Source: a virus. Taken from it: a DNA stretch of 64,000 nucleotides. The DNA lies in IMG/VR virus record IMGVR_UViG_3300009000_000003. One strand, given 5' to 3'. The notes below the pieces were generated by a model. That model had not been told where the DNA came from and did not search any database. It was given only the letters and a program-made list of their open reading frames with translations. Both the position numbers and the translations under genes were made by a program. Positions 8,841 through 64,000 of the stretch are shown here, in pieces (the stretch's first letter is position 1; each line of letters begins with the position of its first letter).

Positions 8841-8915
8841 GACGGCAACTCCTTATAGGAAGAGAAGGGAAAAGGAAGGTGTGTCTTGTGACTCACCACC
8901 ACTATCTCTCTTTCT

Positions 8916-9100
8916 GCCGTAGGCGTGCGTCAGCACACCCTCCGAAGGAGGGAGCCGTTAGGCATAGGGGCCGCTAGGCCCCCCGACAGGGCTCGCCCCT
9001 GTCGAAGACAGCCGTTAGGCGGCAACCGTTAGGTTGCTCCAGCGGAGCCGTTAGGCGGAGCGGAGTACGACGCCGCTAGGCGGAGTACGGGGAGCGGAGT
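8916..9100. repeat. Array of mini-hairpins with C-G(N)NA-G loops plus CGGAG repeats
   Basis: gcc-gta-ggc, gtgc-gtca-gcac, ccctcc-gaa-ggaggg, gcc-gtta-ggc (x3), ggggcc-gcta-ggcccc, gcaacc-gtta-ggttgc, cgcc-gcta-ggcg. Confidence 0.85.
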
Positions 9101-9147
9101 AATATCAGACGCAGCTGTCAAACATTACTATGAATATTTCTATGTTA

Positions 9148-9924: not shown

Positions 9925-9925
9925 T

Positions 9926-15570: not shown

Positions 15571-15571
15571 C

Positions 15572-16246: not shown

Positions 16247-16537
16247 GATAAACTCCTTTTCATGAATGGCGGGTTGTGGAGCCAATTGGGGAGGGCTCCG
16301 GGGAAGTGTGTCATCTTTGTTGACACGAACAAGGTCATAGCGACCACATGTGCAGTTTGAGGTTACACAGAAGCCATAACTACAAAAAGGCTACTGTGGG
16401 GTGCGGTTCTCTGCTTCACCTATCCCAGCTATAAGCTTTCGAGGGAGCGGCAGAATTGACCACACTAACTGCTTATAAAGCAGCTATGTGGCAATGGTTC
16501 AGGTGTTTATAGAGGTTGCCTGAAACCTCTAGCGGGG

Positions 16538-17305: not shown

Positions 17306-17354
17306 TGCGACTGCTCCTTCTGCAGTAAAAGACACTGCGGCTGTTCTGATAAAT

Positions 17355-17470
17355 CCCCTTGATCATCAGGCGAGATTCCTCGCGAGCTTTTACGCAGGGC
17401 CTTGGGCCTCTGCAACCTCCCCTAAGGGAGGTTAGCTTTCGACCAGGACGCTAAGCGCCCTGGTCAGGGG
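17355..17470 (-). ncRNA. Hammerhead ribozyme candidate (permuted), copy B
   Basis: Minus strand reads CCCCU-GACCAGGGCGC-UUA-GCGUCCUGGUC-GAAA-GCU..AGC-UC/GCGAG-GAAU-CUCGC-CUGAUGA-UCA-AGGGG. Predicted cut between 17384 and 17383. Confidence 0.75.
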
Positions 17471-17474
17471 GTGG

Positions 17475-18152
17475 TTAGTCAAACCAATTAGGAATTGGGT
17501 CACCTCTCCAGTCCCAATCCCTAGGGAAAAGAGATTGCGCCATCGACTTGGCGCTGTCATAGCCCATGCGTCGAGCATACTTCTCTTCCTTTCCCAGACT
17601 GAGGGCTTTGAGGAGGCAAATCCAAGCTTCAAAGCCTTTTGGCTCCTGAGGGTTTGGAAATGACAATCCATAACGAATTGCCATCAAAGCCCCCCTCGCC
17701 TCAAGTCTTGAGGCTTTCCAGGAATCGTCATCAATAATGACAATTCCCCTACTCAAGACTTCTTCAAGAAGTCCGGGAAAGGAACAAACCTCCCCTTCTA
17801 GGTCCATCCAGACCTGGTTGATATTAAGGTCTCTGGACCAATAGTAGTCTAGCTCGTACCCTTGTGGGTACACCTCAATGTCAAAGCCTTGGCCTTCGAA
17901 GGCCTCGAGGAGGCTTTGAACCTCTTTGGAAGGCTCGAAAACGAGCTGGCCCCCCAAGGTATAGATCTCCTCGAAATAACTCTCAGGGAGCCACCAGAGG
18001 AAATCCACATCTAGTGGTACCTCCTCATAAGCAAGGTTATGCTTTTTGAAGAAAGCATTCCTTGCTACCCCTCTCTTAAAACCCAAAGTACCAAAAGGCA
18101 CTTTGGGAATATTTGTTGTTGTTGTTGTTGTTGTTGTAATGAAGTAACGCAT
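17475..18152 (-). CDS. Hypothetical protein, first gene of the GC-rich island; N-terminal poly-Thr
   Basis: ATG with GAAAGGA RBS; (ACA)n microsatellite at about 18113-18137. Confidence 0.75.
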   Translation of the reverse strand: MRYFITTTTTTTTNIPKVPFGTLGFKRGVARNAFFKKHNLAYEEVPLDVDFLWWLPESYFEEIYTLGGQLVFEPSKEVQSLLEAFEGQGFDIEVYPQGYELDYYWSRDLNINQVWMDLEGEVCSFPGLLEEVLSRGIVIIDDDSWKASRLEARGALMAIRYGLSFPNPQEPKGFEAWICLLKALSLGKEEKYARRMGYDSAKSMAQSLFPRDWDWRGDPIPNWFD

Positions 18153-18256
18153 TGTTTTGTCCTTTCGACAAGTGGGTTAGCGTTGAATTAAAGCAACGTT
18201 GGCACCCCGGGTGGGCACCCAACTATTACATTGCTAAAACTTCAATAATAAAAATA

Positions 18257-18415
18257 CCCCCAAATATACTTTATATATTTCATAACCCTTATAAGATTTT
18301 TCCCAAATATATTATATATTTTCACTTCCACACATAGGAAATTCTGATCCCAAAATATTAATTATATATTTTCTATAGCCCCTATAGGCCTAAATATACT
18401 TTATATTCTTACCCC
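18257..18415. repeat. Four imperfect AT-rich direct repeats upstream of the island
   Basis: ccc/cct-aaatat(act)-ttatat(a)tt(t)c units starting near 18258, 18302, 18349 and 18389. Confidence 0.6.
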
Positions 18416-48681: not shown

Positions 48682-48697
48682 TTGAAAGGAATTTAAC

Positions 48698-49627
48698 ATG
48701 GCAACATCATTAGATTTAGCTAGAACATATACATCATACTCAGGCGTTGATATTCGTGTTATTATTAACGGCGCACAAGTTGGCTCTATGCAAGCGCTTT
48801 CATACGCTATCCAACGTGAAAAAGCACCCATCTATGTTATGGGTTCAGTAGACCCTATTTCTTATTCTCGTGGTAAACGTGGTATTGCAGGTACAATGAT
48901 TTCACTCATGATGGATACTCATATCCTTATGAGCCCTTCATTTACTGGCGAATATTACCTCGGTGATGCAGATGAAATTTTTGCTATGGTTGGGAAAGGA
49001 GATGATGAAAGCAACAAAGTTACTGGAAGCAATAGCACTCAAAGTTTAAATAATGTAGCAAATGAAAGTTTAGCAGGAGGTGTAGGTTTAACAAGTTTAG
49101 GTTTATCAACATCAGCACGCGGAGGAGTTAGTGGTACAGGGATTGGATCAACCAATGTGTCAAATTCTGGTGGAGCAGGGCAACCCGGAGCAAATGCTTC
49201 AGGTGCTTATCAAAGAAATGATACTAATTTTAGAACATTAGATGTTAACGCATTAGGAAATAATTATCGTATTGCACCAGTATTTTATGTAGATCAAATC
49301 CTTCCATTTGATATTGCTATTGTTGCAGCTAACGAATATGGCCAATCAGCTCAAATGCGCCTTTATGGTTGTGAGATTCTTAACGAAGGATCTGGTTTTT
49401 CAATTGATGACATCGTTATTGAAAACCAGATGACTTATGTTTGCCGCACTATTCTCCCATGGCGTAGTTTTGATTTACAAGACGTAAGAGCAGCAGAAGG
49501 TGGTAGTAAACCAGTATCAGGGTCTGCAAGAGATGCTCTTTACAGCAGATTAGGAAAGCCAGCGAATAGAGGTGCAAACACTACAAGTACTGGTGGAGAC
49601 GCTACAATTAAATATCAAAAAGCTTAA
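48698..49627 (+). CDS. Tail tube protein
   Basis: SYSGVDI..QALSYAIQREKAPIYVMG..SRGKRGIAGT..DQILPFDI..GCEILNEGSGFSIDD. Confidence 0.8.
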   Translation: MATSLDLARTYTSYSGVDIRVIINGAQVGSMQALSYAIQREKAPIYVMGSVDPISYSRGKRGIAGTMISLMMDTHILMSPSFTGEYYLGDADEIFAMVGKGDDESNKVTGSNSTQSLNNVANESLAGGVGLTSLGLSTSARGGVSGTGIGSTNVSNSGGAGQPGANASGAYQRNDTNFRTLDVNALGNNYRIAPVFYVDQILPFDIAIVAANEYGQSAQMRLYGCEILNEGSGFSIDDIVIENQMTYVCRTILPWRSFDLQDVRAAEGGSKPVSGSARDALYSRLGKPANRGANTTSTGGDATIKYQKA

Positions 49628-49658
49628 TATCTTTACTTTATAAGTAATCCGGTGCTAT

Positions 49659-49684
49659 AAAGGAGGCCTAGCCTCCTTTTTTTA
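49659..49684 (+). terminator. Rho-independent terminator after the tube gene
   Basis: aaaggaggc-cta-gcctcc-tttttttt. Confidence 0.88.
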
Positions 49685-49695
49685 TAGGTAAAATT

Positions 49696-50649
49696 ATGGA
49701 TTACACTTATTCTTACTCTGGAGCTGATTGCAGAGCATACGCTTTTTTTCCTGATAATCCAGGAAATATGGTAGATCTCTCTTCATTGGCAACTATATCT
49801 ATCTCTGTGCATGAAGCTAAATCTCCTGTAAGAAGATTAGGGGAAAGAGGCGTTAGTGGTTATACTAGAGGAATCAGAACTATTGCTGGATCAATGGTTT
49901 TCTTAGTAATAGAAGATCATCCTTTATGGAAATTAATTCATTCGAATAATAATTATTCTCCAGGGTACTCTTCTACTGATTGGAACAGAGATTCAGGTCG
50001 GAGTATCTCTAGAATTAATCAAAGAAAACTTTCTACAATGATTCGCCCGTTTAATATAATGTTAATTTATCAAACAGAAGTAGTTAAAACTGGTAACTCA
50101 AGCAAAGTTTCTTTAATGGAGATTCCAGAAAAAGCTTCTTTAATAATTGAAAATATAGATATATTAAATGAAGGTTTAGTTACATCTGTAAATGATATGG
50201 TTACTGAAGTACAAATGCAATTTGTAGCTCAAGATTATTATAGCTTAGATAAAGGAATTCAAGAATTAAAACAACAAGAAATTGTTGAAAATACTTTAAC
50301 TATGCAACCTAAACGATCAGATATTGAAAAACCAGATCCAGTTACAGAAATACAAAACAAGTTATCATTTTTTGGGTATAAAGGAATAAACGAATTAAAT
50401 ATACCAAATTTATCTGAAGAGCAAAAAGCTAAACTTAGAGAAGCAAATACTTCAATTCAACTTAAAGAACTTGCAGAATTAATAAGAGAAGTTAATAAAG
50501 ATGCTAAATATTCATATGACGATACAATGTATTGGTCTAGTCAATATGGCCAATTGACAGAAATTCAAAAAATAATTAATGAAAACAAAGCCATTCGCGA
50601 TTCTTATGAAGTGATTAATGGCAAACTTGTTATTAAAAATAAAGAGTAA
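49696..50649 (+). CDS. Tube-fold paralog (baseplate-proximal tube protein)
   Basis: SYSGADC..SVHEAKSPVRRLG..TRGIRTIAGSMVF..ILNEG, aligns by eye with 48698..49627. Confidence 0.75.
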   Translation: MDYTYSYSGADCRAYAFFPDNPGNMVDLSSLATISISVHEAKSPVRRLGERGVSGYTRGIRTIAGSMVFLVIEDHPLWKLIHSNNNYSPGYSSTDWNRDSGRSISRINQRKLSTMIRPFNIMLIYQTEVVKTGNSSKVSLMEIPEKASLIIENIDILNEGLVTSVNDMVTEVQMQFVAQDYYSLDKGIQELKQQEIVENTLTMQPKRSDIEKPDPVTEIQNKLSFFGYKGINELNIPNLSEEQKAKLREANTSIQLKELAELIREVNKDAKYSYDDTMYWSSQYGQLTEIQKIINENKAIRDSYEVINGKLVIKNKE

Positions 50650-50654
50650 AATTT

Positions 50655-51116
50655 ATGACTAATTACGAATACTTTTCTGGAGCTAATGTAAAAATATCCT
50701 TTACTCAAATTAATAAATTTGACGATAATATAATCCTTCCAAAAGAAATAATTGAATGCGCAGGTATTTCTTATTCTTATCAGAATTCAAGACAACCAGT
50801 ATACTCTTACGCATCGAGTAGATTTGATGCAGTGCTACCAGGTAGGGAAATTATTCAAGGAACTTTTTTAGTTAACTATGTTTCGCCAAATTATGTAATT
50901 AACAAAATAAAAGAAACTGAAACTAATGAATTTACTTTTGATGAATTATTTACACCACACTTTGACATAACAATTAACTTTGGTAATGATAGTAATAAAA
51001 ATAGAGTAATAGAAAATTGTTTTATTATTTCCATGGGGCAAACAATCCAAATAAGTGAGCAAGTAATTATAGAAGAATATGGATTTATTGGACGCAATAT
51101 TAAAGGATCTAATTGA
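50655..51116 (+). CDS. Third tube-fold paralog
   Basis: YFSGANV..ISYSYQNSRQPVYSY..GREIIQGT..PHFDI. Confidence 0.7.
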   Translation: MTNYEYFSGANVKISFTQINKFDDNIILPKEIIECAGISYSYQNSRQPVYSYASSRFDAVLPGREIIQGTFLVNYVSPNYVINKIKETETNEFTFDELFTPHFDITINFGNDSNKNRVIENCFIISMGQTIQISEQVIIEEYGFIGRNIKGSN

Positions 51117-52024
51117 TGGGACTAGAAGGTCGAAAAATAGAAGATAACAAAGTTGTTTTTGGAGAACCTGCTACTGGAAAAGCTTTACAAGCACTACAAA
51201 GAAATTCTCCTACAGCTGAATCTATATTAAGCAGTTTACCACCAAGTGCTTTTATACCTATTCAACAAGAAACAACTTTAGTCGAAGAAGATATAGAAAA
51301 AAAAGAAAAAGCTAAACAAGAATTAGATGAGAAAGTTAATATGACAAAATATAGAAGAGAAAGAAAACGTAAACAAAGCTTACTTAAAGAAAAGAAAGAA
51401 AGTCATATTAAAAAAAGTTTGGAAGAACCAAAAGAAGAAGCTACTGTAGAAAAAACTTCTATAGAAAAAATTATAGAAACTTCTAATAAAGAAGAGGAAC
51501 TTATGAATTTAGAAGATGAATTGGCAGCTTTAGAAAAAGAAGTAGCAGCAAAAAAAGCTGAAAAAGAAAAAGCTGAACTTCAAAAAATGTCAGAAGAAAT
51601 ACAAGCAGCTCCTCAAGAAGAGCAACCTGAAATGAAAGACCAGATTTTAGAATTATTAAAGTCTGATCCAAACGCGCCAGGTATTGAAACAATTAATGCT
51701 TGGAAAGAACGTTTTGGAAAAAACGGTTTGCATGTAATGGCTTTTGGAGAAGATGATGTATACATTTACCATCACCTTACAAGAGGCGAATGGAAGAAAA
51801 TTAAAGAGCTAATGACACGTTTATCAGAAACAGATGAACAAGAAGAAATTGAAGAAAAACTAAAAGAAAAAGTTGTTCTTTATTGTGTACTTTATCCATC
51901 AGTAGATGAAAACTGGTTGGAGTACTGCAAAGCAGGAATCCTCGACTCATTATATCAAATGATTCTTTTAAATAGTGGTTTCTTAACCCCCCAGCAAGCG
52001 ATGTTATTGACTACCCAGCTATGA
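51113..52024 (+). CDS. Putative tail assembly chaperone
   Basis: INAWKERFG..YIYHHLTRGEW..CVLYP..AG..L...I...SGF; position after the tube genes. Confidence 0.6.
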   Translation: MMGLEGRKIEDNKVVFGEPATGKALQALQRNSPTAESILSSLPPSAFIPIQQETTLVEEDIEKKEKAKQELDEKVNMTKYRRERKRKQSLLKEKKESHIKKSLEEPKEEATVEKTSIEKIIETSNKEEELMNLEDELAALEKEVAAKKAEKEKAELQKMSEEIQAAPQEEQPEMKDQILELLKSDPNAPGIETINAWKERFGKNGLHVMAFGEDDVYIYHHLTRGEWKKIKELMTRLSETDEQEEIEEKLKEKVVLYCVLYPSVDENWLEYCKAGILDSLYQMILLNSGFLTPQQAMLLTTQL

Positions 52025-52701
52025 GTTTATTAAGAGCATTAGAATCTAATTCTGAGCTCTACAGTACAATTTATGAAGATGTAGTTTTAAAATTCAGATT
52101 ATTAAAAATCAAAGAATACAACTACTTCAATAAAATAATTACGGGCGGTCGAATACCGCCTTTTTTAGTTTTTGAAGAAATCTTCAATTTATGTAGTTTT
52201 GATCCAGTAGAGTTCTTTCCTAAAGAGTTGCCTGTAGGATATTTTATATCTACTGGGCATTTAATTTATTATTTATCTGGAGGAAAAGAAACTAAAAATT
52301 TCTTATTAGAGATTGCTCAAACAAGAACAGAGCATCCACCTGATAGTATTTTCGAACACATGAAAAGTATTATATTTACTGCTTTTCCTTCTTTATGTTT
52401 AAAAGACATAGATGAAATGACGGAAAAAGAATTTGTTCGTAATTTTGTTACTGCTGAAAACAAATTAATTAAAACAATGCAAGGATATACGCCGCTCGAT
52501 TTAAAGAAAATTTACGAAGAAATTTATGAATCAAAAACTGAAGAAGTAGAAAAAAAGAGCGAAGTAGTACATAATGTTAAGAATATGGAACAAGAGCTTG
52601 GTTATTGGGAAGTACAAGAAGCAGAAGCTAAATTTATTGAAGAAGAAAAAGCAAGATTAACAAGAGAGCATTTAGCAAAGCTAGATCAAAGAAAAGGTTA
52701 G
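52021..52701 (+). CDS. Putative second tail assembly chaperone
   Basis: Position before the giant genes; ATGA overlap in the -1 frame. Confidence 0.5.
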   Translation: MSLLRALESNSELYSTIYEDVVLKFRLLKIKEYNYFNKIITGGRIPPFLVFEEIFNLCSFDPVEFFPKELPVGYFISTGHLIYYLSGGKETKNFLLEIAQTRTEHPPDSIFEHMKSIIFTAFPSLCLKDIDEMTEKEFVRNFVTAENKLIKTMQGYTPLDLKKIYEEIYESKTEEVEKKSEVVHNVKNMEQELGYWEVQEAEAKFIEEEKARLTREHLAKLDQRKG

Positions 52702-52704
52702 TTT

Positions 52705-55700
52705 ATGTTTGCAAGCCAAGGGCCGGGAGGCATTTACTATTCTGCAGTACAGCAAGAACCAGAGATGCACCCCTTGATTGAAATGGGAGCTTCTTTAGCA
52801 CCTTATGTGACCCTTGGTATGGGAGCAAACTATCTTGCTAAACTTAAATATAAAAATAGTAAAGAAATAACAGCTTATGATGTAGCTTTAACAAAAACAC
52901 GTAACCTTTTAAATAAAGGTTTAGGAGGATTTTTTAATACATTTCGTATAGCAGAAATGGGATCGTTTAATTTAAGTGGAGAAGCTTTAGGTTTAAATTT
53001 AAAACAATCAGTATTGGATCCTTCAAAACAAGTAAGGCAACAAGTTTTTGGAAGTGAATACTTTAATAAAAATACAAATAAGTTATTAAAAGAAATACTT
53101 GGTGAAAGTGATTACGAAAAAATATCTGCGCACTTAATTGGTGGGCAAGATAATTTTGAATTAATCTATGAAATGGGTACTGAAGATAAAAGAAAAGGTA
53201 ATTTAATATTTAGAGAACTACAATCTGAATTTGTAGATACAGTAGACAGTACAGGCAAACCAATAAAGCAAAAAGTTTACAAACCAAAAACAGGAACTGA
53301 AAGATTAATTTCTCAAAATGTTGCTTTACAATATGGTGTTTCAGGAGCTGATACTTTAGATCTTTTAGAAGGGGGAGACTTTCAAGGAAGAATAAATCCC
53401 ATCACTCAAGGTGTTTATCAAAATCTTGTTTCTGGAGAAGATGTAAATTTTAAAGAAGTTTTTAAAAGTAGCATTAGTGGGCAACAATCAAGAGTAATGC
53501 TTGTTCCTAGCGTAAGTGGATCGTTAGATAATGTAGGAGATTTAAAAAGACGTACAAGCGTTTTAACAGGGCATTTGTCAGCAGGTATTGATAGATTTAA
53601 TAGACTTATTGATGCAACTACAAATCAAATACCTATGTTTAACCAAATAAAAGAAAAATTATTTGGTGATCAAGATTTTGGTTTAAGTTTAAAAACAACT
53701 CCAGATGCATTTTATAAGCAATTCTTTAGTATAGGTTTAAAAGCTTCTAAAATAGGTGGAGCTTACATGGGGCTGCAAACTATAGATCACTATAGAGAGC
53801 AGTTTGGATTTTTAGGAAATGTAGTAGCATCAAGTGCAGTTTCTGGAGGACTAGCGCTAGCTTATACTAAAATTGCAAAAAAAGCTGATACAGCTTTTGC
53901 TACTAAACTAGGATTAGGAAGCTTAGCAATTCAACTAGCAATGCCGGGGTTTGATAAAGGCGTTGTAGAAGGCTTAGCGACTACTGCAGTAAATGTAGAT
54001 ATAGGAAGATCCTATATAGGTCAATTCACAGGATTATCGTATGTAAGAAGAGGGATCGAAGGAATACTTCCTGGATTTACAGAACCTGAAATGGGGATTG
54101 CTTTAGGATTAGGAGTAGCTGGTTTATCTTACTCTGAATATCCAAAAAGATTTGCTGAAAGATTAGCAAGCGGAAAACTACATACAGGAGATAAAATATT
54201 CCAAAGTATAGATAACTTTTTGTCTCCTAAGTTTGGAGCTTTAGTAGGAGAAAGCTACTCACCACCAGCATCTAAAAAAGATATTATCTCACAAAACTTA
54301 ATTGATATCTTATATCCAGGCAAAGATCCAGCAACTAAAGAATACAGTGAAAAATTTATATCTAAAAATCCATTAGCTCAAACTTTGATGGGAATGGATG
54401 AAACCAATCCTTTATTTAAAGAATATAAAACAAAAATTGATGATATTTTACAAGGCAAAGGATTTGACGAGTTAGATAAAGATCAAATTAAAAATTTAAA
54501 ATCTTTTTTTAAAGATAATAAAGATTTAATTAAACAAATGATTCCTGGAATTGACGCAGGCCAATTAGAATTAAAAGTAGATGATTTTGATTATACTTTA
54601 AAAAATATAGAAAGAAGCGAAGTTTATAAAGCATATACACAAAACAATGAAATTAACGCTTCTTTATTAAAAAGAATAAATTACATTAATAATAAATATT
54701 CTAGCGGAGAAGGAGTTTTAAATAATATTTCTAGAAGAATAGAAATATTTGGTGCCGAAATGTATCACAGTTTTTATGGTGCATCTATGACTGGAGAAGT
54801 AGATGTAGACATAGACGGCATAGAAACAAAAACTAAATTAGCTGATGGAACATTTAAAAATTTAGATTATGAAACTGTAGCTAAAAGTTTAAAAGCTTCT
54901 CCAATTATGAAACGTTTAGGTACTCTTACTTTAGGTACTGCATTTTTGCATCAAATGGTAACTTCTGGATTTTTTGGAATGATGGAAAACCCTGATGAAT
55001 TAAAAGAAATATATTCAGGAGAAAAGCTAGTAGAAGTTAAGAAAGGTAGATGGTGGGAAGCTGGAGCTACTCCTTATGAAGGTGGGGAAACTAGATATTT
55101 TAGACCGCACGCTTATGTTCAGATGATGACTAAAGCAAAAGATAGATCAGTTTGGGGAGATGAAGTAGATGAGTACAACCCATTAACTAGATTCTTATTA
55201 AAGAACTTTACTTATCATTTAGAACGTAAAAATTACTATGACAGGCCCTACCCTATAACGGGTGCTGCATTTGAAGATGTGCCAGTTCTAGGAGGCATTT
55301 TGAGTGCTACTATTGGTAGAGTAATTAAACCTACTAAATTAATGCATGAAGAAGAGTTAAGGAGGGTTGGTGCTGGAGGAATAAATGAAATTGCTTATCA
55401 AACAGAATATGGATCGTCTCCAGAATTAGGACAAATTCCACCAGGAGTACCTACTAGCCCATATGGAACAATGGCTAGTTTAGGAAAAATACAATATCAA
55501 TTTAGAGAACTTGAAGGTTTGACTGGTTATGGAAAAAATGTTTTACAAAAAATGTTTACAGGTAGAGAAATTCTAGGAACTCGACAATACATCATGGCGA
55601 ATTCAAATATGATGAGTTCGACAATTAGAGATTTTTGGGATCAAGATTTGGGTGGCTTTGCTTTTATGTCAGAGCCAATTAGACGTTTACTACCTAGACC

Positions 55701-57129
55701 TAGAGCTGAAATTGAAACATACAATCCAATAATGAATTCAATGCCTTCGTATTTACCAGATAAATTTAAACAAGGAGACCCTTATCGTTTAATTGATAAT
55801 GGCGCAGTAAGACTTCCTGGCAAAGGATATGAAGCTGTAAACCCAGATGTAGCCGGAATGGACCCTGAAGATTATCCACTTATACACAAGTATAAAATAA
55901 TGGCTGATGTAGCTCCTCAATCTCGAGTAACAATGAAAATGAGAGAAGAGCTTTTAGAAAGAGAAGTAGCAGAAATATTAACTAACAGAGAAAAAGAAAT
56001 GTTAGCCAAAATATCTGAGTATCACTACAAGCGATTAGCTGCTACAAGAGATGAAACATTTCATGAGAACGCAATTAAAATTCCAGTGCTTTCTTCTTTG
56101 ATTGGAGAAACATATGCTGGAGCAACTTCATTAATGAGAAAAACTGCAGCTGCTGCAGAGAACTTAATGCCTGGTGGTTTTAGACCTCTAAGTAAATTAA
56201 CTGGACATACAAGAGATGCTATTGAAGTTTATGAAATGGAGCGTTTGTATAACACTAGTAACTCTTTTTGGGACGCCCCTATAAGAGACTGGTTTAGGCC
56301 CGCAATGTATTCTGCAGCACATGCTATGGGTTGGGATGGAAAACCTATACATGTACAAAAGAGAGAAGCTTTAGATGAGCATTTTGATAAACTTCAATTC
56401 ATGAAGTTTATGGCTTTAGCTGACCAGGCATCTAATGCAAAAGATAGAAAGCGTTATTTAGGGTTAGCTGCTAGAACAAGAACAGGTGTAAACCCTAACG
56501 GAGACGCGCTCTCTTTATACTTGTCATTACCTAGTGCAGAAAAAAGATTTTTTGATGCGTTCGCTAATGCTAGAGAATCAGATCGACAAAGAATTTTAGA
56601 AATGGTTCCAGACGATCAAAAAGCATTATATAAAACAGTTTGGTCTAGAATAGATGCTGGTCAAGAATCGGAGATGCTTGCTTCAAGTAAACCAATTATT
56701 AATGAGCAACATATGTACTCTCAATTAGCTAAAGTAAGAGAAGAGATGAAAATGATGCCTATGCCTGAAGCGGATTGGATTGGTTGGCATAAAGACGTAG
56801 ACATTAATGATATTAAAGTAAAATATGTTGATAATCTTGGTGCAGAAATACATGACTATGACATGTGGGAATCTCAAGTCAGAAAAGTCTCTAGAAGGCC
56901 CTATTTAGAAGGAAGTGACCTATTTCTATATAAGGGTAGGGGGTTTAATAGAAACAGCGCTAGACAAGAGTTTTTAAGAGGATTTGACAATTATAGTGAA
57001 TTGAACTCTGGTAAAATTTTATTAAATAGTAGCGGTGATTTTTTTGAGAATTCCAGAGCTGAAATTTATTATAAAGATTCTAGAGAAGCTGAAATACTAA
57101 ATATGATGTCTACAGCAATTAGAGGTTAA
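52705..57129 (+). CDS. Large virion protein at the tape-measure position (tape measure or ejected protein)
   Basis: 1474 aa, Gly-rich hydrophobic helices, KKGRWWE..PYEG..YFRP; follows the chaperones. Confidence 0.55.
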   Translation: MFASQGPGGIYYSAVQQEPEMHPLIEMGASLAPYVTLGMGANYLAKLKYKNSKEITAYDVALTKTRNLLNKGLGGFFNTFRIAEMGSFNLSGEALGLNLKQSVLDPSKQVRQQVFGSEYFNKNTNKLLKEILGESDYEKISAHLIGGQDNFELIYEMGTEDKRKGNLIFRELQSEFVDTVDSTGKPIKQKVYKPKTGTERLISQNVALQYGVSGADTLDLLEGGDFQGRINPITQGVYQNLVSGEDVNFKEVFKSSISGQQSRVMLVPSVSGSLDNVGDLKRRTSVLTGHLSAGIDRFNRLIDATTNQIPMFNQIKEKLFGDQDFGLSLKTTPDAFYKQFFSIGLKASKIGGAYMGLQTIDHYREQFGFLGNVVASSAVSGGLALAYTKIAKKADTAFATKLGLGSLAIQLAMPGFDKGVVEGLATTAVNVDIGRSYIGQFTGLSYVRRGIEGILPGFTEPEMGIALGLGVAGLSYSEYPKRFAERLASGKLHTGDKIFQSIDNFLSPKFGALVGESYSPPASKKDIISQNLIDILYPGKDPATKEYSEKFISKNPLAQTLMGMDETNPLFKEYKTKIDDILQGKGFDELDKDQIKNLKSFFKDNKDLIKQMIPGIDAGQLELKVDDFDYTLKNIERSEVYKAYTQNNEINASLLKRINYINNKYSSGEGVLNNISRRIEIFGAEMYHSFYGASMTGEVDVDIDGIETKTKLADGTFKNLDYETVAKSLKASPIMKRLGTLTLGTAFLHQMVTSGFFGMMENPDELKEIYSGEKLVEVKKGRWWEAGATPYEGGETRYFRPHAYVQMMTKAKDRSVWGDEVDEYNPLTRFLLKNFTYHLERKNYYDRPYPITGAAFEDVPVLGGILSATIGRVIKPTKLMHEEELRRVGAGGINEIAYQTEYGSSPELGQIPPGVPTSPYGTMASLGKIQYQFRELEGLTGYGKNVLQKMFTGREILGTRQYIMANSNMMSSTIRDFWDQDLGGFAFMSEPIRRLLPRPRAEIETYNPIMNSMPSYLPDKFKQGDPYRLIDNGAVRLPGKGYEAVNPDVAGMDPEDYPLIHKYKIMADVAPQSRVTMKMREELLEREVAEILTNREKEMLAKISEYHYKRLAATRDETFHENAIKIPVLSSLIGETYAGATSLMRKTAAAAENLMPGGFRPLSKLTGHTRDAIEVYEMERLYNTSNSFWDAPIRDWFRPAMYSAAHAMGWDGKPIHVQKREALDEHFDKLQFMKFMALADQASNAKDRKRYLGLAARTRTGVNPNGDALSLYLSLPSAEKRFFDAFANARESDRQRILEMVPDDQKALYKTVWSRIDAGQESEMLASSKPIINEQHMYSQLAKVREEMKMMPMPEADWIGWHKDVDINDIKVKYVDNLGAEIHDYDMWESQVRKVSRRPYLEGSDLFLYKGRGFNRNSARQEFLRGFDNYSELNSGKILLNSSGDFFENSRAEIYYKDSREAEILNMMSTAIRG

Positions 57130-57130: not shown

Positions 57131-60100
57131 ATGAAAAAACCAAGCTTTTTAAATTTTTCAGAAGAGCAAAATCAAAACAGAAAAAATACAGTTCAAAATC
57201 TTTTAGCTGCTGGAGCAGTAGGAGGTTTAGGGTATGCTGGTTATAAAAACTTTTTAAACTCACCTGCAGAAATAACAAAAGCGTTAACAGGTTTAAATGC
57301 TCCTACAGAATTAAGGCAAGCAGGAGAAGAAATAGGTAAAGGGCTTCGCACTTCAAAAGAAGTTTTAGAAACAAGTAAAAAAATAGAGTTAGATAAATTT
57401 GTTGAAAATATCAACAACCAATTAGATGATATTTTAGATCAAACAAGTAACGTTGCTCCAGAAGAACGCAGAGCTTTTTTTGCTAGTTTTTTTGAAACAG
57501 TAAAAAATGAACAAATAAGCGCTGGAGTAAATACAGATGATTTACTTAAACAAGCTTACGATGATGTAGCTACGCTTAATGATACACAAAAAGCAGTATT
57601 AACAGACATGTTCAATATGCAAATAAAAGGTTCTGAAAAAACAAGCCGAAGATTTAATAAAGCTTATGCAAAATATAGTTCTAATATGAATTTATTTGCA
57701 GAGACTACAAAAAGAGAAATTCCGTCTGGAATTCCAACAAGTAATATTAGAAGGAATGTTAGCGTACCTAGTGATATTCAAAGCAAATACAATGAAATTG
57801 TTAATTTAGCTAGAGGAAGTAATTATAGCGTAAGTTTAGATGAAGTAGATGAAGGTGGTGTCAAAGGACTGTATGCTCGATTCACAAAAAATGGAGGACA
57901 AAGTGAAACATTAGTTTTAAGAGCAGGTACAGACACAGCAGGAAATCCAATCATAAGAGCTGGAGAAAATTTACAAACACGTTATGTAGCTCCATTAAAA
58001 GTTTTAAACGCCCCCGCTATGATTGATAGTAGAACTATGCGTTCTGTAAATGCAGGTACAGTAAAACAAGCAATGGGAAATGGAATAATTACAGATTATG
58101 CAGATTATGTATTTAATTTATTCAAATCGCAAATCGGAGGACGTAGTGGGTTTGCAAATTTAAACAGAAGTAATTTTAGCAAGTTTAATCAACTAATAAC
58201 TGCTTCTGCGATGTATGCTCCTTCAGAAGCTGGAAAACTATCTGATGCTTCTAGCAGAGCGATAGCTTCAAGCAGAAAACTATTTTCTAGTTCGTTTTTA
58301 ATTTCAGGGTTAGAGCAATTTAGTCCAGAGCAAAGAGGTCAAGTTAATAAAATTCTATTAGAAGCTTTTCCTCAGGATTTTGCAGGTGTAAGCTCTGTGC
58401 AAACTATGACTAGAGATTATGAAAATCCTTTTATGCGAGGCAGCAATCTAAGTTTTGCAAAATTAGGATATGCAGGAAAAGATATTCCAGGATATGCAAG
58501 TCCATTTAAATATTTAAAATTTTATGGTCGAGATTCTATAGACCGTGCAGTACAAAAACAAACAGCGCGTGAATACCAGATGATAGGTAGAGAAGAAACT
58601 GTACTAGGTATTGATGGTATAGATAAGTTTGGTAAGGGGGGTGTTATAAAAACAACTGGAGTTGGAAGTGATTTAATAGGAATTAATAAAGCTTATTCTG
58701 GAACAGCTACAGGTTTAAATTTAGGCGGAGTTATATTTAAGAAAAAAGCTGCTGAAAAATTAGGATTAGCTGAAGGTGTGGCTTATCTAGGAGGTACCGT
58801 CAGAAATGAAATAATATCTACTTTGACGGTTAACCCCAATATTGGAATTGCAGAAACAAACTTATTAAAAAAATTAAAGCAAGGTAGTATAACTGTAGGT
58901 GGTGCAGGAGCAAATTATAGCGTAGATGAATTTTTTCAAAAATACGCAGGAAAGGATGGAAGGGTAATTGTAGGAGAAATTGATACAGGTTTTAGTACAA
59001 TACAAAGAAGAAGCGGTTTAGAAAGCTTCCAATTAGAATTGTATGATCAGGCAGGTGGCTCTAGACCTAATTATAAAATTAGACAAACTTCTCAACTTAG
59101 AAATCCAGGAACAAAACTTTTTGGTTTTGCTACAAAAGATACAACTAATCAAATAACTGAAGAACAGTTACGCGCTAGATTAAAAAATGTTGGAGCAGAA
59201 GATTTTGGAGATTTATATTTCGGAGAAAATGTAGGAGGAAATATAAAATCAACTTTAGTAACAACTTCTGGACAATTAAAAAAATCTAGTACATATTTTA
59301 GCAACTTTATGGTTGGAGGTTTTGCTCAGATTGGAGGAGATGTTGCAAAATTAGAAAATGCAATTAGGGCTGATATCGGTGGAGATACAAATTATTTAAA
59401 CTTAATTAATAAAACTTATGGAACATCTTATGCTAATTTAAATCAAGCGCCAGATGCTTATCGAAGTGGTGTTCAACTTTTAGCTACAGCACAAAATATA
59501 ATAACATCAGGAAGAACCCAAAGATTAGGATCAAGGGAGCTTGGGCATATAGTAGGAGTTTTAGAAGATAGTATTGGTAAGTTTGGTATGGACGAAAACT
59601 TATTTAATAAAATAATAAGTAAAGGAGATGATGCTTTTCAAAAAGCAGCTAGAAGCAATATTGGCTTTGGTGTAACTTATGCAACTACTGGTGGTGTTCA
59701 TTCTGAGTTAAAAAGAAATTTGGCTAGAATGGAGCCTCGCGCATTCAATTATATGTATACTTCATTACGAAGCAATATGGGCTTAAGTGCAAATGAAGCT
59801 AAAAAATATATGGCTTCTTTTGTAGGAAGGATGGAAGGTTCAACAGAAAAATCTTTAATATTGCCAGGAATGACAGCAGCTCAATTTTCACTAAGTCCAA
59901 TGAATGAAATGGAATTTAGTAAATATGTATCTTCTGTAGGCAATATAGGAGCTATGGATGACGCAGATGTAGCTAAATTGTTTTCGCTAGGCCAAGGAAA
60001 TGAATCTGAAGTAATTGAAATACTTTCTAAGTATGGTCAAGGCAGTACAGTTGATTTAAAAAAAGTAATTTCAGATCCTAAAAAACTAACAGCTATTTCA

Positions 60101-63100
60101 GAAATGCTTGGAGGAAGAACAAGTTTATTTTTCGGAGGAGCGCAAGTTTTTGATAACTTATCAGGATTTTCATTAAAAAGCGGAGAAGAATTATTAAATA
60201 TAGAAAATGAATATAATAGATCAGTAACAGATTTAATAACTTCTATTTCGTCTATTAGAGATTCAAGATCAGACACTGAGTTAAGTAATCGTACTCAACA
60301 ATTTAAATACGCTAAAAAATACATGGCTGATATAACTGGTAAAACAATAAGGCAAAGTTTATCAGGAAGCGTAAGTGGTTCTGGATCTTATATGGGTGCA
60401 GGTATTATTTTAGGAAATTCTAAAGCAAATTCTACATTAGTATCGAATAATGTTACTGACATGGGAGAGCTAACTAATGCTTTTGAAAAAAATAAAGGTT
60501 ATGTAGTTTTTCAAGATGCTCAAGCGTTTTTAGATGGGATGTCTACATATAGAGATGGTTTGAAAGGAGAGAATAAAGATAAAGCTGTAGCAAAAAGAGT
60601 AAGGCAATTTTTTCTAGGGATGCATACTAAAGATAAAGAAGCTGTTACAGCTATGGTTATGCGTAATCCAAACATTAACTTTACTCACTTTTTACCAGGC
60701 ATGGGGTTGATGCGCTATGATTTTAATAAAGGTAATCGAGATCAATTCTTTGAAATGTTTAGAGGAAGATCAGTACCTTTAATTAATTACGACAGAGTAA
60801 ATGAAATTAATGAAAAACTTATGGGTATTTATGATCCTAAAGCAAAAAAACATAGTGGAAAAGGTTTGTTTGAAGTTTTAAATGCAGAAAATCCTGCAAA
60901 TATAAGAAGGCTCCTTTATGCACATTTAGAAGGTTTGGGAACTACAGACGGATATAGTACAGATGATCTTAAAAATAGATTTGGAAAAGATTATGATATT
61001 TTAAAAAAACATTACAAAAAAGCTGGTGCTAGCTATAAGTATTATTTAGATAAAGAAATAAAATTAAAGAAAAAAGTTCAAAAAACTCTTAAAACAAGAA
61101 TGAAAAAAGGTGAAGATCTAAAAATAGATTTAGATAACGTACAAAAAGAAATACAAGATTTATTAAAAAAACAAAAAGAAGCACGTTATAAAGAAGGAAA
61201 GCTTACAAGTAAAGCTGTACATGATTCCTTAATGGAATATTATGAAACTATTTTTAAAGATTCAAAATTTCAAATACAACAAAATTCTTTTTTAAGAAAT
61301 CTTGAACAGTTTGCTTTTTCAGAAAATTATGAAAAAGATGATGTGAGTAAAACAATATCAGATACTTTAGAAAAAATAAAAGGAATGAAAAATTACAGTA
61401 AATTAGACGTTTTTCATCATTTAATGGGAATGGATTTTGGAGAAATAAAAACTTTAAAATATGATGGAAAAGAAGAATCTAAAATTAAAAAATATTATTC
61501 TACAGAAGAAACAGATAAAGTAGCTGCTAAAATAAAAAAATTGTTAGATGAAAAAAAAGCGCTTTTAGATCCAAGTGTCTCTAATAATAAAATACAAGGA
61601 AATAAATTAAATATTTTAGAAAGACAATTAGAATTAAACAAAAACAGTTTAACTTCATTTGAAGACATAGCAAGGCTTTATGAACAAAGAAGCGATGAAA
61701 TAATTCAAACTAAGTCTGGGAAAGATATTACTGTAGGGGAACAATTAGATAAATATTTTGCATCAATGTTAAGACATCATCAAAACTTTGGAGAAGTTGG
61801 TGGAGGGCGTATTTATTTCCCTCAAATAGACGTAGAAGGAACATTAGAAAGCGGAGGAAAGTCATTTAAATTCAGCGAACGTATAGACTTTTCAAGAATG
61901 ATGATTGGTGACTTTGACGCTGATTATTATCAAGTATTTCATGATACTGATGCATTTAACAAAAATGCTGCAGACCATTTTGGTTTGTATAAAGCTGGTG
62001 GTGAGTACTTAATTCATAAACAATTACTTGGTGAAGGTATGGCTCAACTTGGAAAACGTTTAGGTGTAGGAGAAATATCTATAGGTCAAAGCGTTTTAGA
62101 TGAGTATCAAAAAGAAAAAGTAATTAAAGAAGTAGGCGGGTTAGATGTACAAGTAAAGATTGGTATGCTTGGTGCTATTCGTGCAGCAGAAGAAAATTCA
62201 TTGCGTACTGGCGGGAAAGAATATATGTCAGAAAGTATGCGTAGTGTATCTTCATTAGTTGCAGTAGCGCAGGAAGTTTTAGCTATTAAAGGTAAATCAT
62301 TACCTACCGCAGCAAATGTAGCAGAAGCTTTTACTAGCTCTTTGAAAGAATCTTATAAAACAGGTAAAGGAGATGCTATTTTTAACTTTTTCCAAGAAAA
62401 TGTTTTTAAAGGAACATTACTAGAAAAAGAAGGTAAAATTAAATTTTCTAATATTGATTTTCTCAATTTAGATGAAAGCTTAGAAACAACTAAACAATTA
62501 AAAAGTTTTTTAATGGACATCGAAATTGATACTAGTGTTTTTAGAAGACATCTAGATGAATTGGCTTCTAATGTTAAAAAATATGGACTCGATGCATTAG
62601 GTTCAGATACTCGTACTGGTAGTGCTTTGATGTCAGGTGACATAGCTTCAATTCAACTATTAAATAGACTCATGTCTGCTTCTGCAGAAGGAGGCTTATT
62701 TGATTCAAGCGGAAACTTTGATCAAAGTCAGCTTGAAAGAATTTCAAGAGACATAAGCGGTGGTTCTAAACAAGTATTTTTTAAAGCAGCCCCAAGAAAT
62801 TTTGGAGGTTTAATTGCAGGAGTTTTAGGAGGATCTTACTTGTTGGGAGCTACAAATAATGTATCTTCGCTGCAACTATCAGAAGAAAACTTTTCAGATA
62901 TTAGAGCAAGTCAAAATATAGGCAATAAACATGTATCTCAAATGTTTGCAAACAAAGATCATAATGGGTCTATTAGTAGTTTAAACAATAGTGGTTATGA
63001 TTCTACTTTTTACCAAAGACCTATTAATCAAGGGGAAACTATGGTAATTAAAAATAATAGAACTCGTTTTTATGGTGAAGCTGCAACTCAATCAGAAGCT

Positions 63101-63211
63101 ATGGGATCGGCACATAGATTTGCATCTGCAGGTGGAAAAGCTTTTGTAGGTATACAAGATAATAGAATGCCAATTTCTAATTCTTATATTGCTAATTCTT
63201 TAAGAGATTAA
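57131..63211 (+). CDS. Putative virion-packaged single-chain two-barrel RNA polymerase
   Basis: Ordered motifs GLAEGVAY, GTKLFGFATKD (beta-like Lys pair), VMRNP, RIYFP and IGDFDADYYQV (61910-61924). Confidence 0.7.
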   Translation: MKKPSFLNFSEEQNQNRKNTVQNLLAAGAVGGLGYAGYKNFLNSPAEITKALTGLNAPTELRQAGEEIGKGLRTSKEVLETSKKIELDKFVENINNQLDDILDQTSNVAPEERRAFFASFFETVKNEQISAGVNTDDLLKQAYDDVATLNDTQKAVLTDMFNMQIKGSEKTSRRFNKAYAKYSSNMNLFAETTKREIPSGIPTSNIRRNVSVPSDIQSKYNEIVNLARGSNYSVSLDEVDEGGVKGLYARFTKNGGQSETLVLRAGTDTAGNPIIRAGENLQTRYVAPLKVLNAPAMIDSRTMRSVNAGTVKQAMGNGIITDYADYVFNLFKSQIGGRSGFANLNRSNFSKFNQLITASAMYAPSEAGKLSDASSRAIASSRKLFSSSFLISGLEQFSPEQRGQVNKILLEAFPQDFAGVSSVQTMTRDYENPFMRGSNLSFAKLGYAGKDIPGYASPFKYLKFYGRDSIDRAVQKQTAREYQMIGREETVLGIDGIDKFGKGGVIKTTGVGSDLIGINKAYSGTATGLNLGGVIFKKKAAEKLGLAEGVAYLGGTVRNEIISTLTVNPNIGIAETNLLKKLKQGSITVGGAGANYSVDEFFQKYAGKDGRVIVGEIDTGFSTIQRRSGLESFQLELYDQAGGSRPNYKIRQTSQLRNPGTKLFGFATKDTTNQITEEQLRARLKNVGAEDFGDLYFGENVGGNIKSTLVTTSGQLKKSSTYFSNFMVGGFAQIGGDVAKLENAIRADIGGDTNYLNLINKTYGTSYANLNQAPDAYRSGVQLLATAQNIITSGRTQRLGSRELGHIVGVLEDSIGKFGMDENLFNKIISKGDDAFQKAARSNIGFGVTYATTGGVHSELKRNLARMEPRAFNYMYTSLRSNMGLSANEAKKYMASFVGRMEGSTEKSLILPGMTAAQFSLSPMNEMEFSKYVSSVGNIGAMDDADVAKLFSLGQGNESEVIEILSKYGQGSTVDLKKVISDPKKLTAISEMLGGRTSLFFGGAQVFDNLSGFSLKSGEELLNIENEYNRSVTDLITSISSIRDSRSDTELSNRTQQFKYAKKYMADITGKTIRQSLSGSVSGSGSYMGAGIILGNSKANSTLVSNNVTDMGELTNAFEKNKGYVVFQDAQAFLDGMSTYRDGLKGENKDKAVAKRVRQFFLGMHTKDKEAVTAMVMRNPNINFTHFLPGMGLMRYDFNKGNRDQFFEMFRGRSVPLINYDRVNEINEKLMGIYDPKAKKHSGKGLFEVLNAENPANIRRLLYAHLEGLGTTDGYSTDDLKNRFGKDYDILKKHYKKAGASYKYYLDKEIKLKKKVQKTLKTRMKKGEDLKIDLDNVQKEIQDLLKKQKEARYKEGKLTSKAVHDSLMEYYETIFKDSKFQIQQNSFLRNLEQFAFSENYEKDDVSKTISDTLEKIKGMKNYSKLDVFHHLMGMDFGEIKTLKYDGKEESKIKKYYSTEETDKVAAKIKKLLDEKKALLDPSVSNNKIQGNKLNILERQLELNKNSLTSFEDIARLYEQRSDEIIQTKSGKDITVGEQLDKYFASMLRHHQNFGEVGGGRIYFPQIDVEGTLESGGKSFKFSERIDFSRMMIGDFDADYYQVFHDTDAFNKNAADHFGLYKAGGEYLIHKQLLGEGMAQLGKRLGVGEISIGQSVLDEYQKEKVIKEVGGLDVQVKIGMLGAIRAAEENSLRTGGKEYMSESMRSVSSLVAVAQEVLAIKGKSLPTAANVAEAFTSSLKESYKTGKGDAIFNFFQENVFKGTLLEKEGKIKFSNIDFLNLDESLETTKQLKSFLMDIEIDTSVFRRHLDELASNVKKYGLDALGSDTRTGSALMSGDIASIQLLNRLMSASAEGGLFDSSGNFDQSQLERISRDISGGSKQVFFKAAPRNFGGLIAGVLGGSYLLGATNNVSSLQLSEENFSDIRASQNIGNKHVSQMFANKDHNGSISSLNNSGYDSTFYQRPINQGETMVIKNNRTRFYGEAATQSEAMGSAHRFASAGGKAFVGIQDNRMPISNSYIANSLRD

Positions 63212-63212: not shown

Positions 63213-64000
63213 ATGTTAGATAATTTAATTAATGTTGATGCTAATCAGGAAGAAATTAATTTTTATATTAATGACGTAGGTCTATTTGTAGCACCTACAA
63301 GCATTTCTATACATAAAGAAGGAATGACATATAGTTCTAAAACTTTGCGCACCAATACAAGTGTAAAATTTGGATCTGGTAACGGAATTTACCACGTACA
63401 ATTAAGCTTAGTATTTCCTCCAGATAGCCTAGTTCAGTTACATAGAATCATTGTACAAATAAAAAATAACCCATTTGTTTACATAGAAAATGATTTTATT
63501 AAATCTTCAATAGACCCATTAGAATTAAATGAGCCTATTAAAGATAGAGACAATTCTTTATTTTTTACTTGCATGGGAATTAATGTAATCAATCACCCGA
63601 GTTCTCCCGCATCATTTATTTGTGAAGTAGATTTAAGATTATTTAATGAAAAAGCTTACTCTTCAAGATTAGAATATAAAGATGATGTAACTGAAAATAT
63701 TTACAAAGATCAAAAATTGACTGAGATATCTTTTAATATTCCGTTTGGAGACAGCGAAGAATTAAATATTATTAATGAATTTCCAATTAATCAAAGTAAT
63801 TCAATAAGAAGCTATAATAAAATTTTTGCAGATAAAAAAAATCCAACTAGAAAAGTAAGGCAACCTTACAAATCTAAAATATATATAAGGTATTCTAATT
63901 GGTTGCAAAATTATTATCTTCAAGATTGTTTTCGAATAAATATATTTGAAATATTAGAAGAAGAATATTCAAAAGATGAAATTAAAAACATTTTATATAA
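63213..64000 (+). CDS. Putative tail/baseplate protein (partial, runs off the window end)
   Basis: ATG at 63213, in frame at both ends checked: MLDNLINVDANQEEINFYINDVGLFVAPTSISIHKE..KTLRT..; absent from the ORF track, consistent with no stop in the window. Confidence 0.6.
   Translation, partial: MLDNLINVDANQEEINFYINDVGLFVAPTSISIHKEGMTYSSKTLRTNTSVKFGSGNGIYHVQLSLVFPPDSLVQLHRIIVQIKNNPFVYIENDFIKSSIDPLELNEPIKDRDNSLFFTCMGINVINHPSSPASFICEVDLRLFNEKAYSSRLEYKDDVTENIYKDQKLTEISFNIPFGDSEELNIINEFPINQSNSIRSYNKIFADKKNPTRKVRQPYKSKIYIRYSNWLQNYYLQDCFRINIFEILEEEYSKDEIKNILY

What the first reader, a model, noticed from the sequence alone, without database searches (positions are those of the whole stretch)
57131..63211. 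Candidate virion RNA polymerase with a DFDAD active site in a contractile-tailed phage, giving a two-polymerase scheme
Seen: beta-like motifs (AEG at 58769-58777; GTK......K at 59108-59137) followed by beta-prime-like RNP (60662-60670) and GDFDAD (61910-61924), with about 410 Lys-rich residues between RNP and the Asp triad. The gene is in the tail / tape-measure region. Established: crAss-like phi14:2 gp66 is a similar-sized virion RNAP with DFDID, and Thermus phage P23-45 has a tape-measure-linked virion RNAP plus a non-virion RNAP. Inference: this enzyme is injected to transcribe the GC island, whose YonO-like enzyme then transcribes later genes. I do not recall this pairing being described in a myovirus.
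Basis: partly seen in the sequence, partly recalled or inferred. Interest (0 to 1): 0.82.

Follow-up and report, generated by a model that had tools for sequence, protein, structure and literature searches.

The report
RNA polymerase in myovirus tape-measure slot
A 2,026-residue gene lying exactly where related contractile-tailed phages keep their tail "ruler" gene encodes a one-chain relative of the cell's RNA polymerase; the phage probably carries it in its particle to switch on a first block of genes that holds a second polymerase, and cultured phages exist in which this can be tested.

Summary
Observation confirmed. ORF 57131-63211 (2026 aa) belongs to an unannotated family (90 clusters at 50% identity) with invariant two-barrel catalytic residues (K662, K718, R1178-x-P, D1594/96/98). 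A confident model of an insert-free relative (pLDDT 82.5) matches only two-barrel RNA polymerases (top 19 hits); the window protein's own model failed. Every neighbour maps in order onto the tail module of myovirus 0305phi8-36, putting the gene in the slot of gp146, its assigned tape measure. Same-slot proteins of cultured phages ME3, WH1, Edson and KLEB27-3 also carry RxP...DxDxD. The 416-residue RNP-to-triad spacer is an insert of 114-1493 aa that explains 95% of family length variation. The GC island encodes an RdRP/YonO-like enzyme and starts with an AT-rich palindrome conserved in relatives, a candidate promoter. Virion packaging, activity and targets are inferred, not shown. It works like Thermus P23-45 gp96/gp64 but is not that family. 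Two-polymerase myoviruses are known (phiKZ, AR9; multi-subunit); I found no paper on this single-chain form. This scan reported the same kind of gene on other DNA (35 findings), one with a long insert.

The parts
57131..63211 (+). Single-chain two-barrel RNA polymerase in the tape-measure (gp146) slot, 2026 aa; probable virion RNAP
58688..59900 (+). Beta-like half (DPBB-B): G549 of AEG, K662, K669, K718; approximate limits
   Evidence: invariant columns; residues 1-400 of the relative's model align to beta subunits
60662..60670 (+). RNP (RxP motif of the beta-prime-like barrel)
   Evidence: R and P invariant in 40 relatives
60770..61640 (+). Length-variable, charged, Gly-poor, predicted-helical insert inside the catalytic barrel (about aa 1215-1500)
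61910..61924 (+). DFDAD metal-binding triad (D1594, D1596, D1598)
62780..63211 (+). Conserved C-terminal module: Gly-rich hydrophobic segment and terminal D-x-R-x-P-I motif; possible baseplate/membrane anchor
   Evidence: weak likeness to gp146 C-terminus
52705..57129 (+). Ortholog of 0305phi8-36 gp145 (virion protein), 1474 aa
   Evidence: profile E 8.8e-71 (71); tblastn
63213..63998 (+). Start of the baseplate hub gene (gp147-like), cut by the window end
46099..52701 (+). Tail sheath, two tube genes, tube paralog and two tail chaperonin genes (gp139-gp144 orthologs)
9926..15142 (-). Second polymerase, RdRP/YonO-like, 1738 aa (ADGG, QxRxH...FQxKG, GQPQL, RDSDGD); probable non-virion RNAP
   Evidence: homologs in relatives' islands
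18200..18407 (-). Four AT-only palindromes each followed by GG, the last leading into a 75-nt element conserved in relatives; candidate virion-RNAP promoter at the head of the island
2600..18152 (-). High-GC island of minus-strand genes and four tRNAs; probable first-injected (pre-early) block
   Evidence: arrangement as in 0305phi8-36 (65, 75, 92)

Best explanation
The ORF encodes an active DNA-dependent two-barrel RNA polymerase, beta-like half then beta-prime-like half in one chain (shown at the level of sequence conservation and a relative's predicted fold). It is the product of the tape-measure locus of a 0305phi8-36/ME3-type myovirus (shown by gene order), is made late, and is built into the particle, most likely stretched out in the tail tube (inferred). 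On sheath contraction it is ejected ahead of the DNA, folds at the cytoplasmic side of the membrane, recognises the AT-rich palindromic element at the head of the high-GC block and transcribes that first-entering block (inferred). That block encodes a second, RdRP/YonO-like polymerase that takes over a later gene class (enzyme class supported; its role inferred by analogy to P23-45 gp64). Step odds: two-barrel polymerase 0.95; in virion 0.88; transcribes the island 0.7.
For: Invariant G549, K662, K718, R1178, P1180, D1594/96/98 among 14 invariant columns in 40 relatives; 58 long relatives carry DFDAD/DFDGD/DYDAD-type triads. Model of relative P0034 (32-38% identical, E 8e-77 and 9e-61): pLDDT 82.5, pTM 0.83; ranks 1-19 of 48,161 chains are all two-barrel polymerases: RDR2 Z 9.7, rmsd 4.0, 354 aligned; QDE-1 Z 9.6; Pol II/I large subunits Z 8.6; P74-26 gp62 Z 7.9; P23-45 gp96 Z 6.6; isolated DPBB 2.5 A over 84 residues. 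All eight neighbours map in order to gp139-gp145 and gp147; gp146 is the assigned tape measure and a virion protein by mass spectrometry (PMC2147016). Gene order fixed in all 12 relatives examined. Cultured same-slot proteins carry RxP...DxDxD: WH1 gp95 and Edson (RYP1958, DHDGD1996), KLEB27-3 gp34 (RYP1893, DYDGD1933), ME3 gp36 (REP1174, DHDQD1217), and viral-structure hits include an ME3 protein of 801+802 aa (= gp36; E 3.6e-5) and a 1258-aa half matching WH1 gp95 by length (E 7e-7). A complete 161.8-kb relative has both genes and the GC island. Island-head element: 3 matches in the window against 0.05 expected, found in only three IMG/VR contigs, all at the GC step ahead of a second-polymerase homolog. 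Island ORF: 25 of 30 language-model hits are PF05183 RdRP clusters, score 0.95, 192 shared features.
Against: No experiment: no virion proteome, activity or transcript for this uncultured phage. The window protein's own model was poor (pLDDT 53.6, pTM 0.29) and gave no polymerase match, so the fold is transferred from a relative. Z-scores of 8-10 are only moderate and Foldseek/PDB gave no E below 0.001. 0305phi8-36 gp146 and MTATph1 CDS27, in the same slot, have no triad and no profile match, so the virion evidence is for a slot-mate, not a demonstrated homolog. The pairing is not obligate in the wider lineage: no PF05183 enzyme was found in WH1, KLEB27-3 or ME3. The island ORF has no Pfam hit and was not folded.
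Confidence: 0.7

Rival explanations
1. It is a virion polymerase but not the ruler: the constant-length gp145-like neighbour (or both proteins together) sets tail length, and the polymerase rides as cargo in the tube or head. The insert has some other job (DNA binding, shielding from host defence, a linker). Compatible with the best explanation's transcription steps.
For: The gp145-like protein stays at 1459-1482 aa in close relatives while the polymerase runs from 2026 to 2553 aa; only about 430 residues follow the triad, with no long repeat-rich ruler as in P23-45; the insert is K/R-rich (15-22%).
Against: gp146, not gp145, was assigned as tape measure by tail length (PMC2147016); the insert behaves as ruler segments do (one site, helical, fast gain and loss of length: 118, 132); termini are conserved with hydrophobic Gly-rich segments.
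Confidence: 0.45
2. It is an active polymerase that is not packaged: made from the late operon and used inside the cell to boost late transcription.
For: No direct virion evidence; one slot-mate with virion data (gp146) lacks the triad.
Against: Held between gp145 and the hub gene at about 20% identity; no other tape-measure candidate in the module; WH1 gp95 and KLEB27-3 gp34 are annotated as structural proteins.
Confidence: 0.08
3. It is virion-borne but its main job is to pull DNA into the cell or to make primers or a few short RNAs, with host polymerase transcribing most of the island.
For: Transcription-coupled DNA entry is proposed for P23-45 (PMC10770324); only one cluster of the candidate element was found, at the island head, not one per gene (130).
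Against: Sigma-70-like sites in 1500-21000 are near chance (30 against 23.7, sd 4.4); one head promoter could drive a co-oriented 16-kb block.
Confidence: 0.17
4. It is a purely structural tape measure derived from a polymerase, with dead or chance motifs.
For: Large insert inside the catalytic barrel; fast divergence (30% identity where neighbours keep 53-82%).
Against: The catalytic residues are nearly the only invariant positions; the insert maps to a surface helical excursion of the barrel in the relative's model.
Confidence: 0.04

Closest known systems
Thermus phage P23-45 gp96 (tape-measure-fused virion RNAP) with gp64 (non-virion RNAP); Chaban et al. 2024, PMC10770324; PDB 8h2m/8h2n
   Same: Single-chain two-barrel enzyme at the tape-measure locus; second single-chain polymerase in a pre-early block; AT-rich motif ahead of pre-early genes; structural match (Z 6.6, rmsd 4.8, 315 aligned).
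   Different: Contractile, not long non-contractile, tail; 1650-3270 aa instead of 5002, with the polymerase filling the middle of the chain and no long C-terminal ruler or metallopeptidase; variable insert inside the catalytic barrel; no detectable sequence similarity; the two enzymes here look unrelated to each other, whereas gp96 and gp64 are ancient paralogs.
crAss-like phage phi14:2 gp66 virion RNAP
   Different: Podovirus, head-packaged; no sequence match; not among the 50 listed structural hits (inconclusive); one crAss protein at E 0.011 in the viral library.
phiKZ- and AR9-like jumbo myoviruses (virion and non-virion RNAPs)
   Same: Myoviruses with two two-barrel polymerases, one in the virion (PMC7824862).
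   Different: Multi-subunit, head-packaged enzymes close to cellular RNAP; here each enzyme is one chain and one sits in the tail module.
Bacillus phage 0305phi8-36 (gp146 tape measure; gp99 YonO/RdRP-like RNAP), with ME3, WH1, Edson, KLEB27-3, MTATph1
   Same: Same terminase, tail module order and a minus-strand early block diverging from the terminase region with an RdRP-like gene (53, 65, 92, 132).
   Different: gp146 has no triad; ME3, WH1, Edson and KLEB27-3 have a slot triad with normal spacing (38-43 aa) but are unannotated and absent from the two-RNAP list of PMC10770324; this phage has both enzymes.
YonO / PF05183 RdRP-like phage polymerases (for the island ORF)
   Same: Motif order and language-model features.
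   Different: Below Pfam detection, no profile match to gp99, and about 500 aa longer.

Membership tests
Two-barrel (DPBB) nucleotidyltransferases | DxDxD metal-binding triad | tested here: met
   D1594/96/98 invariant
Two-barrel (DPBB) nucleotidyltransferases | RxP upstream of the triad in the same barrel | tested here: met
   R1178, P1180 invariant; spacing 114-147 aa in most relatives, 416 here
Two-barrel (DPBB) nucleotidyltransferases | Two basic residues from the second barrel | tested here: met
   K662 invariant, K669 at least 90% conserved, GDK...KG-like spacing; their 3D position was not measured
Two-barrel (DPBB) nucleotidyltransferases | Pair of double-psi barrels, beta-like then beta-prime-like | tested here: met
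   In relative P0034: model 1-400 matches beta chains, 460-1150 beta-prime chains, 622-893 isolated DPBBs
Two-barrel (DPBB) nucleotidyltransferases | Same fold in a model of the window protein itself | tested here: inconclusive
   Low-confidence model, no informative match
Two-barrel (DPBB) nucleotidyltransferases | Template-dependent RNA synthesis | not testable with these tools
   needs purified protein
P23-45 gp96 family (TMP-fused vRNAP) | Polymerase encoded at the tape-measure locus | tested here: met
   slot of gp146
P23-45 gp96 family (TMP-fused vRNAP) | Detectable sequence homology to gp96 | tested here: not met
   no hit in PDB sequences or cultured phages with single sequences or profiles
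P23-45 gp96 family (TMP-fused vRNAP) | N-terminal polymerase followed by thousands of residues of ruler with metallopeptidase | tested here: not met
   about 430 aa after the triad; no Pfam domain (4, 5, 118)
P23-45 gp96 family (TMP-fused vRNAP) | Non-contractile tail | tested here: not met
   tail sheath gene at 46099-48681 (6, 132)
P23-45 gp96 family (TMP-fused vRNAP) | Present in virions; transcribes pre-early genes including the second RNAP | not testable with these tools
   indirect only: position, island, conserved element
crAss-like virion RNAP (gp66) | Podovirus context, head-packaged cargo cluster | tested here: not met
   contractile tail module of 0305phi8-36 type (53, 132)
crAss-like virion RNAP (gp66) | Structural closeness to gp66 | tested here: inconclusive
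   not listed; weak crAss hit
phiKZ/AR9 multi-subunit RNAPs | Catalytic halves split over several genes | tested here: not met
   one ORF holds both halves
YonO/PF05183-like polymerase (island ORF) | Pfam RdRP score above cut-off | tested here: not met
   no hit for any of 10 members
YonO/PF05183-like polymerase (island ORF) | Conserved DxDGD, xxPxL and second-barrel basic motifs in order | tested here: met
   invariant in 10 homologs at 27-45% identity; DNDGD in a distant homolog; language-model lead
YonO/PF05183-like polymerase (island ORF) | Two-barrel fold | not tested

The most novel reading that the evidence does not exclude
The polymerase is itself the tape measure: the whole chain is stored extended in the contractile tail, the insert that grows and shrinks inside the catalytic barrel (114-1493 aa) tunes tail length, and after ejection the chain folds into an active enzyme that starts at a hairpin-like AT promoter. 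The design would extend, unrecognised, to cultured phages ME3, WH1, Edson and KLEB27-3.
Probability: 0.3. Interest if true: 0.85.

Novelty: new variant of a known kind. Interest (0 to 1): 0.68.

Why it matters
A tail-delivered two-barrel RNA polymerase has been demonstrated in one siphovirus group only. This family puts the strategy into a widespread, unannotated myovirus lineage, by a sequence-unrelated enzyme, and points to cultured phages whose 'hypothetical' or 'structural' tail genes carry the catalytic motifs, so the question of how a large folded enzyme gets through a tail tube becomes directly testable. The tolerance of up to about 1400 extra residues within the active-site barrel and a candidate phage-specific promoter give concrete handles for mechanism and for a possible orthogonal transcription system.

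Tried and rejected
Pfam, PHROGs, PDB-sequence and cultured-phage tblastn searches gave nothing for either polymerase. Folding window aa 520-1719 with 14 sequences failed; its Foldseek and VIA searches returned only generic helical bundles. Foldseek/PDB with the good model gave no E below 0.001, though many rows were RNAP beta chains. ESM Atlas on the whole slot protein gave only sub-0.9 scores, with tape-measure families at 0.83: not used as evidence. A fragment alignment (A3) misaligned and a 61-sequence alignment crashed. Family profiles did not significantly detect gp146, ME3 gp36, WH1 gp95, KLEB gp34 or MTATph1 CDS27; C-terminal likeness to gp146 is weak (hhalign probability 41%, 25 columns; HMM not significant). 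phi14:2 gp66 was not among listed structural hits, which excludes nothing. No second polymerase was found in G002, but that record lacks the early block. No whole genome is held for the window; no RNA holder listed. Tail lengths of ME3, WH1 and KLEB27-3 were not found in the paper library, so ruler scaling could not be tested. Host not identified.
Full report
Observation. The ORF runs 57131-63211 on the plus strand and gives 2026 aa. The RNP-to-Asp distance is 416 aa and the middle of it is 17.8% Lys against 7.1% in the core. A contig from an independent study covers 60315-62609 without a difference, so the long spacer is real. No Pfam, PHROG, PDB-sequence or cultured-phage match exists.

The family. 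Close relatives (30-79% identity) were found in metagenomes and IMG/VR. A profile of the N-terminal core found 90 clusters at 50% identity, most long ones 1650-1830 aa. Their triads are mainly DFDAD, DFDGD and DYDAD. In 40 members averaging 23% column identity, 14 columns are invariant; mapped to the window they include G549, K662, K718, R1178, P1180, D1594, D1596 and D1598, with K669 nearly invariant. This is the signature of two-barrel polymerases: an Asp triad from one barrel and basic residues from the other (PMC7824862).

Fold. The window protein folded badly with a shallow alignment (pLDDT 53.6) and matched nothing useful. I therefore folded residues 500-1699 of P0034, the closest relative without a long insert (E 8e-77 and 9e-61 to the window protein): pLDDT 82.5, pTM 0.83. 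Against 48,161 solved chains, ranks 1-19 are all two-barrel polymerases: maize RDR2 (Z 9.7, rmsd 4.0, 354 aligned), QDE-1 (9.6), Pol I/II/III and viral large subunits (7.3-8.6), P74-26 gp62 (7.9); P23-45 gp96 scores 6.6 and isolated DPBBs align at 2.5 A over 84 residues. Model residues 1-400 match beta chains and 460-1150 beta-prime chains, so the order is beta then beta-prime in one chain. Single Z-scores are moderate; the uniform list and the invariant residues carry the case. The fold is transferred, not observed in the window protein.

Position. The terminase's nearest cultured relatives are MTATph1, ME3, 0305phi8-36, WH1, Edson and KLEB27-3. Profiles of the neighbours map in order to 0305phi8-36 sheath gp139 (E 2e-15), tubes gp140 and gp141 (5e-39, 9e-29), gp142 (3e-10), chaperonins gp143 and gp144 (1e-7, 9e-8), gp145 (9e-71) and hub gp147 (2e-4; 1e-14 to the KLEB27-3 hub). 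The polymerase gene thus fills the place of gp146, assigned as tape measure from tail length (PMC2147016) and detected in virions. The order is unchanged in every relative examined, down to about 20% identity. gp146 has no triad, but WH1 gp95, Edson 0920, KLEB27-3 gp34 and ME3 gp36 have RxP followed 38-43 aa later by DHDGD, DYDGD or DHDQD. In the viral structure library the model hits an ME3 protein whose halves (801+802 aa) equal gp36 and an unnamed 1258-aa half that equals half of WH1 gp95; these identifications rest on length. None of these accessions is in the two-RNAP table of PMC10770324.

The insert. In 55 full-length members total length is 1658-3265 aa, the RxP-to-triad spacer 114-1493 aa and the rest 1662 +/- 98 aa (r 0.97; 95% of variance). 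Long spacers fall in one clade (support 1.00, midpoint root) and change quickly inside it: 416 here, 592 in the sister, 818 in the next, and 144 in P0034 beside a 429 sister. The insert is charged, Gly-poor and predicted helical. That is how ruler segments vary, but the gp145-like neighbour keeps a constant length and could be the ruler instead; no tail lengths were available to decide.

Second enzyme and island. The 1738-aa ORF at 9926-15142 (-) keeps ADGG, QxRxH, FQxKG, GQPQL and RDSDGD across homologs at 27-45% identity; residues 150-800 match PF05183 RdRP clusters by language-model features (0.95; 25 of 30 hits), though Pfam itself does not. A complete 161.8-kb relative has both genes and the same higher-GC minus-strand block. 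In 0305phi8-36 the equivalent minus-strand block starts in the terminal repeat and holds the RdRP-like gp99, which suggests that the island enters the cell first (inference). At its head the window has four AT-only palindromes followed by GG (18259-18407; 3 matches against 0.05 expected). The last copy opens a 75-nt element shared with the complete relative; a search of 2.9 million viral contigs found it three times (two distinct phages), each at the GC step ahead of a second-polymerase homolog. The stem is kept while the loop varies, but hairpins are weak (about -2.3 kcal/mol), so a double-stranded palindromic site is as likely. It is a candidate promoter, by analogy to the AT-rich gp96 motif; an origin or packaging signal is not excluded.

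Mechanism and odds. Most likely (0.7): made late, packed in the tail, ejected on contraction, folds, transcribes the first-entering island including the second polymerase. Shown: motifs, family, relative's fold, slot, island, element. Inferred: packaging, activity, targets. Rivals: cargo rather than ruler (0.45, compatible with the transcription steps), mainly DNA pulling or priming (0.17), non-virion (0.08), dead (0.04).

Comparison and novelty. It works like P23-45 gp96 with gp64 but fails membership on sequence, architecture and tail type. Two-polymerase myoviruses are known as multi-subunit phiKZ/AR9 systems. Paper searches found no description of a single-chain polymerase in a myovirus tape-measure slot; the library is incomplete. 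This scan has noted the same kind of gene in at least 32 other genomes, one with a 1,300-residue insert; I reached my reading before looking, and those notes are not independent support. Verdict: real; new variant of a known kind; interest 0.68.

Noticed in passing
window 6723-7178 (-): Four tRNA genes (Met, Lys-TTT, Arg-TCT, Leu-TAA) inside the GC island; three read AT-rich codons, as would suit the 32%-GC late genes in a GC-richer host (inference).
   Followed up: no
window 4745-4775 and 5174-5204; 8960-9056: A 31-nt intergenic element in two 97% identical copies, and a 10-mer in three copies ahead of the 8514-8840 gene; possible promoters of the second polymerase or terminators.
   Followed up: no
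Acinetobacter phage ME3 224456-226849 (-): 798-aa ORF in the presumed early block is a structural hit of the polymerase model (E 4.8e-4) but has no DxDxD.
   Followed up: partly
viral structure library hits A0A7J4 (Microcystis phage Ma-LMM01) and A0A075BUT7 (MaMV-DC): Large proteins of two cultured cyanomyoviruses match the model (E 5e-5, 3e-3); possibly further hidden polymerases. The genes were not located.
   Followed up: partly
L003:10001-17633 and L004:6565-13987: In two assemblies the slot gene is in pieces (1439+188+896 aa; 1143+1328 aa) while near-identical relatives are whole; assembly error is likely but was not checked.
   Followed up: no
window 57131-63211 against G001: The slot polymerase diverges faster (30% identity) than gp145-like (53%), sheath (61%) and capsid (82%) genes.
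   Followed up: no
window 21473-25258 (+): 1261-aa ORF before the terminase with a staphylococcal-nuclease domain at aa 961-1069, conserved in the complete relative.
   Followed up: no
window 3-635 (-) and 18539-20052 (-): ORFs that look like glycosyltransferases by eye, flanking the island; not tested.
   Followed up: no
public runs holding window 57131-63211: Half or more of the words occur in runs labelled soil, estuary and marine; estuary strains show a 3-base insertion near 57887.
   Followed up: no
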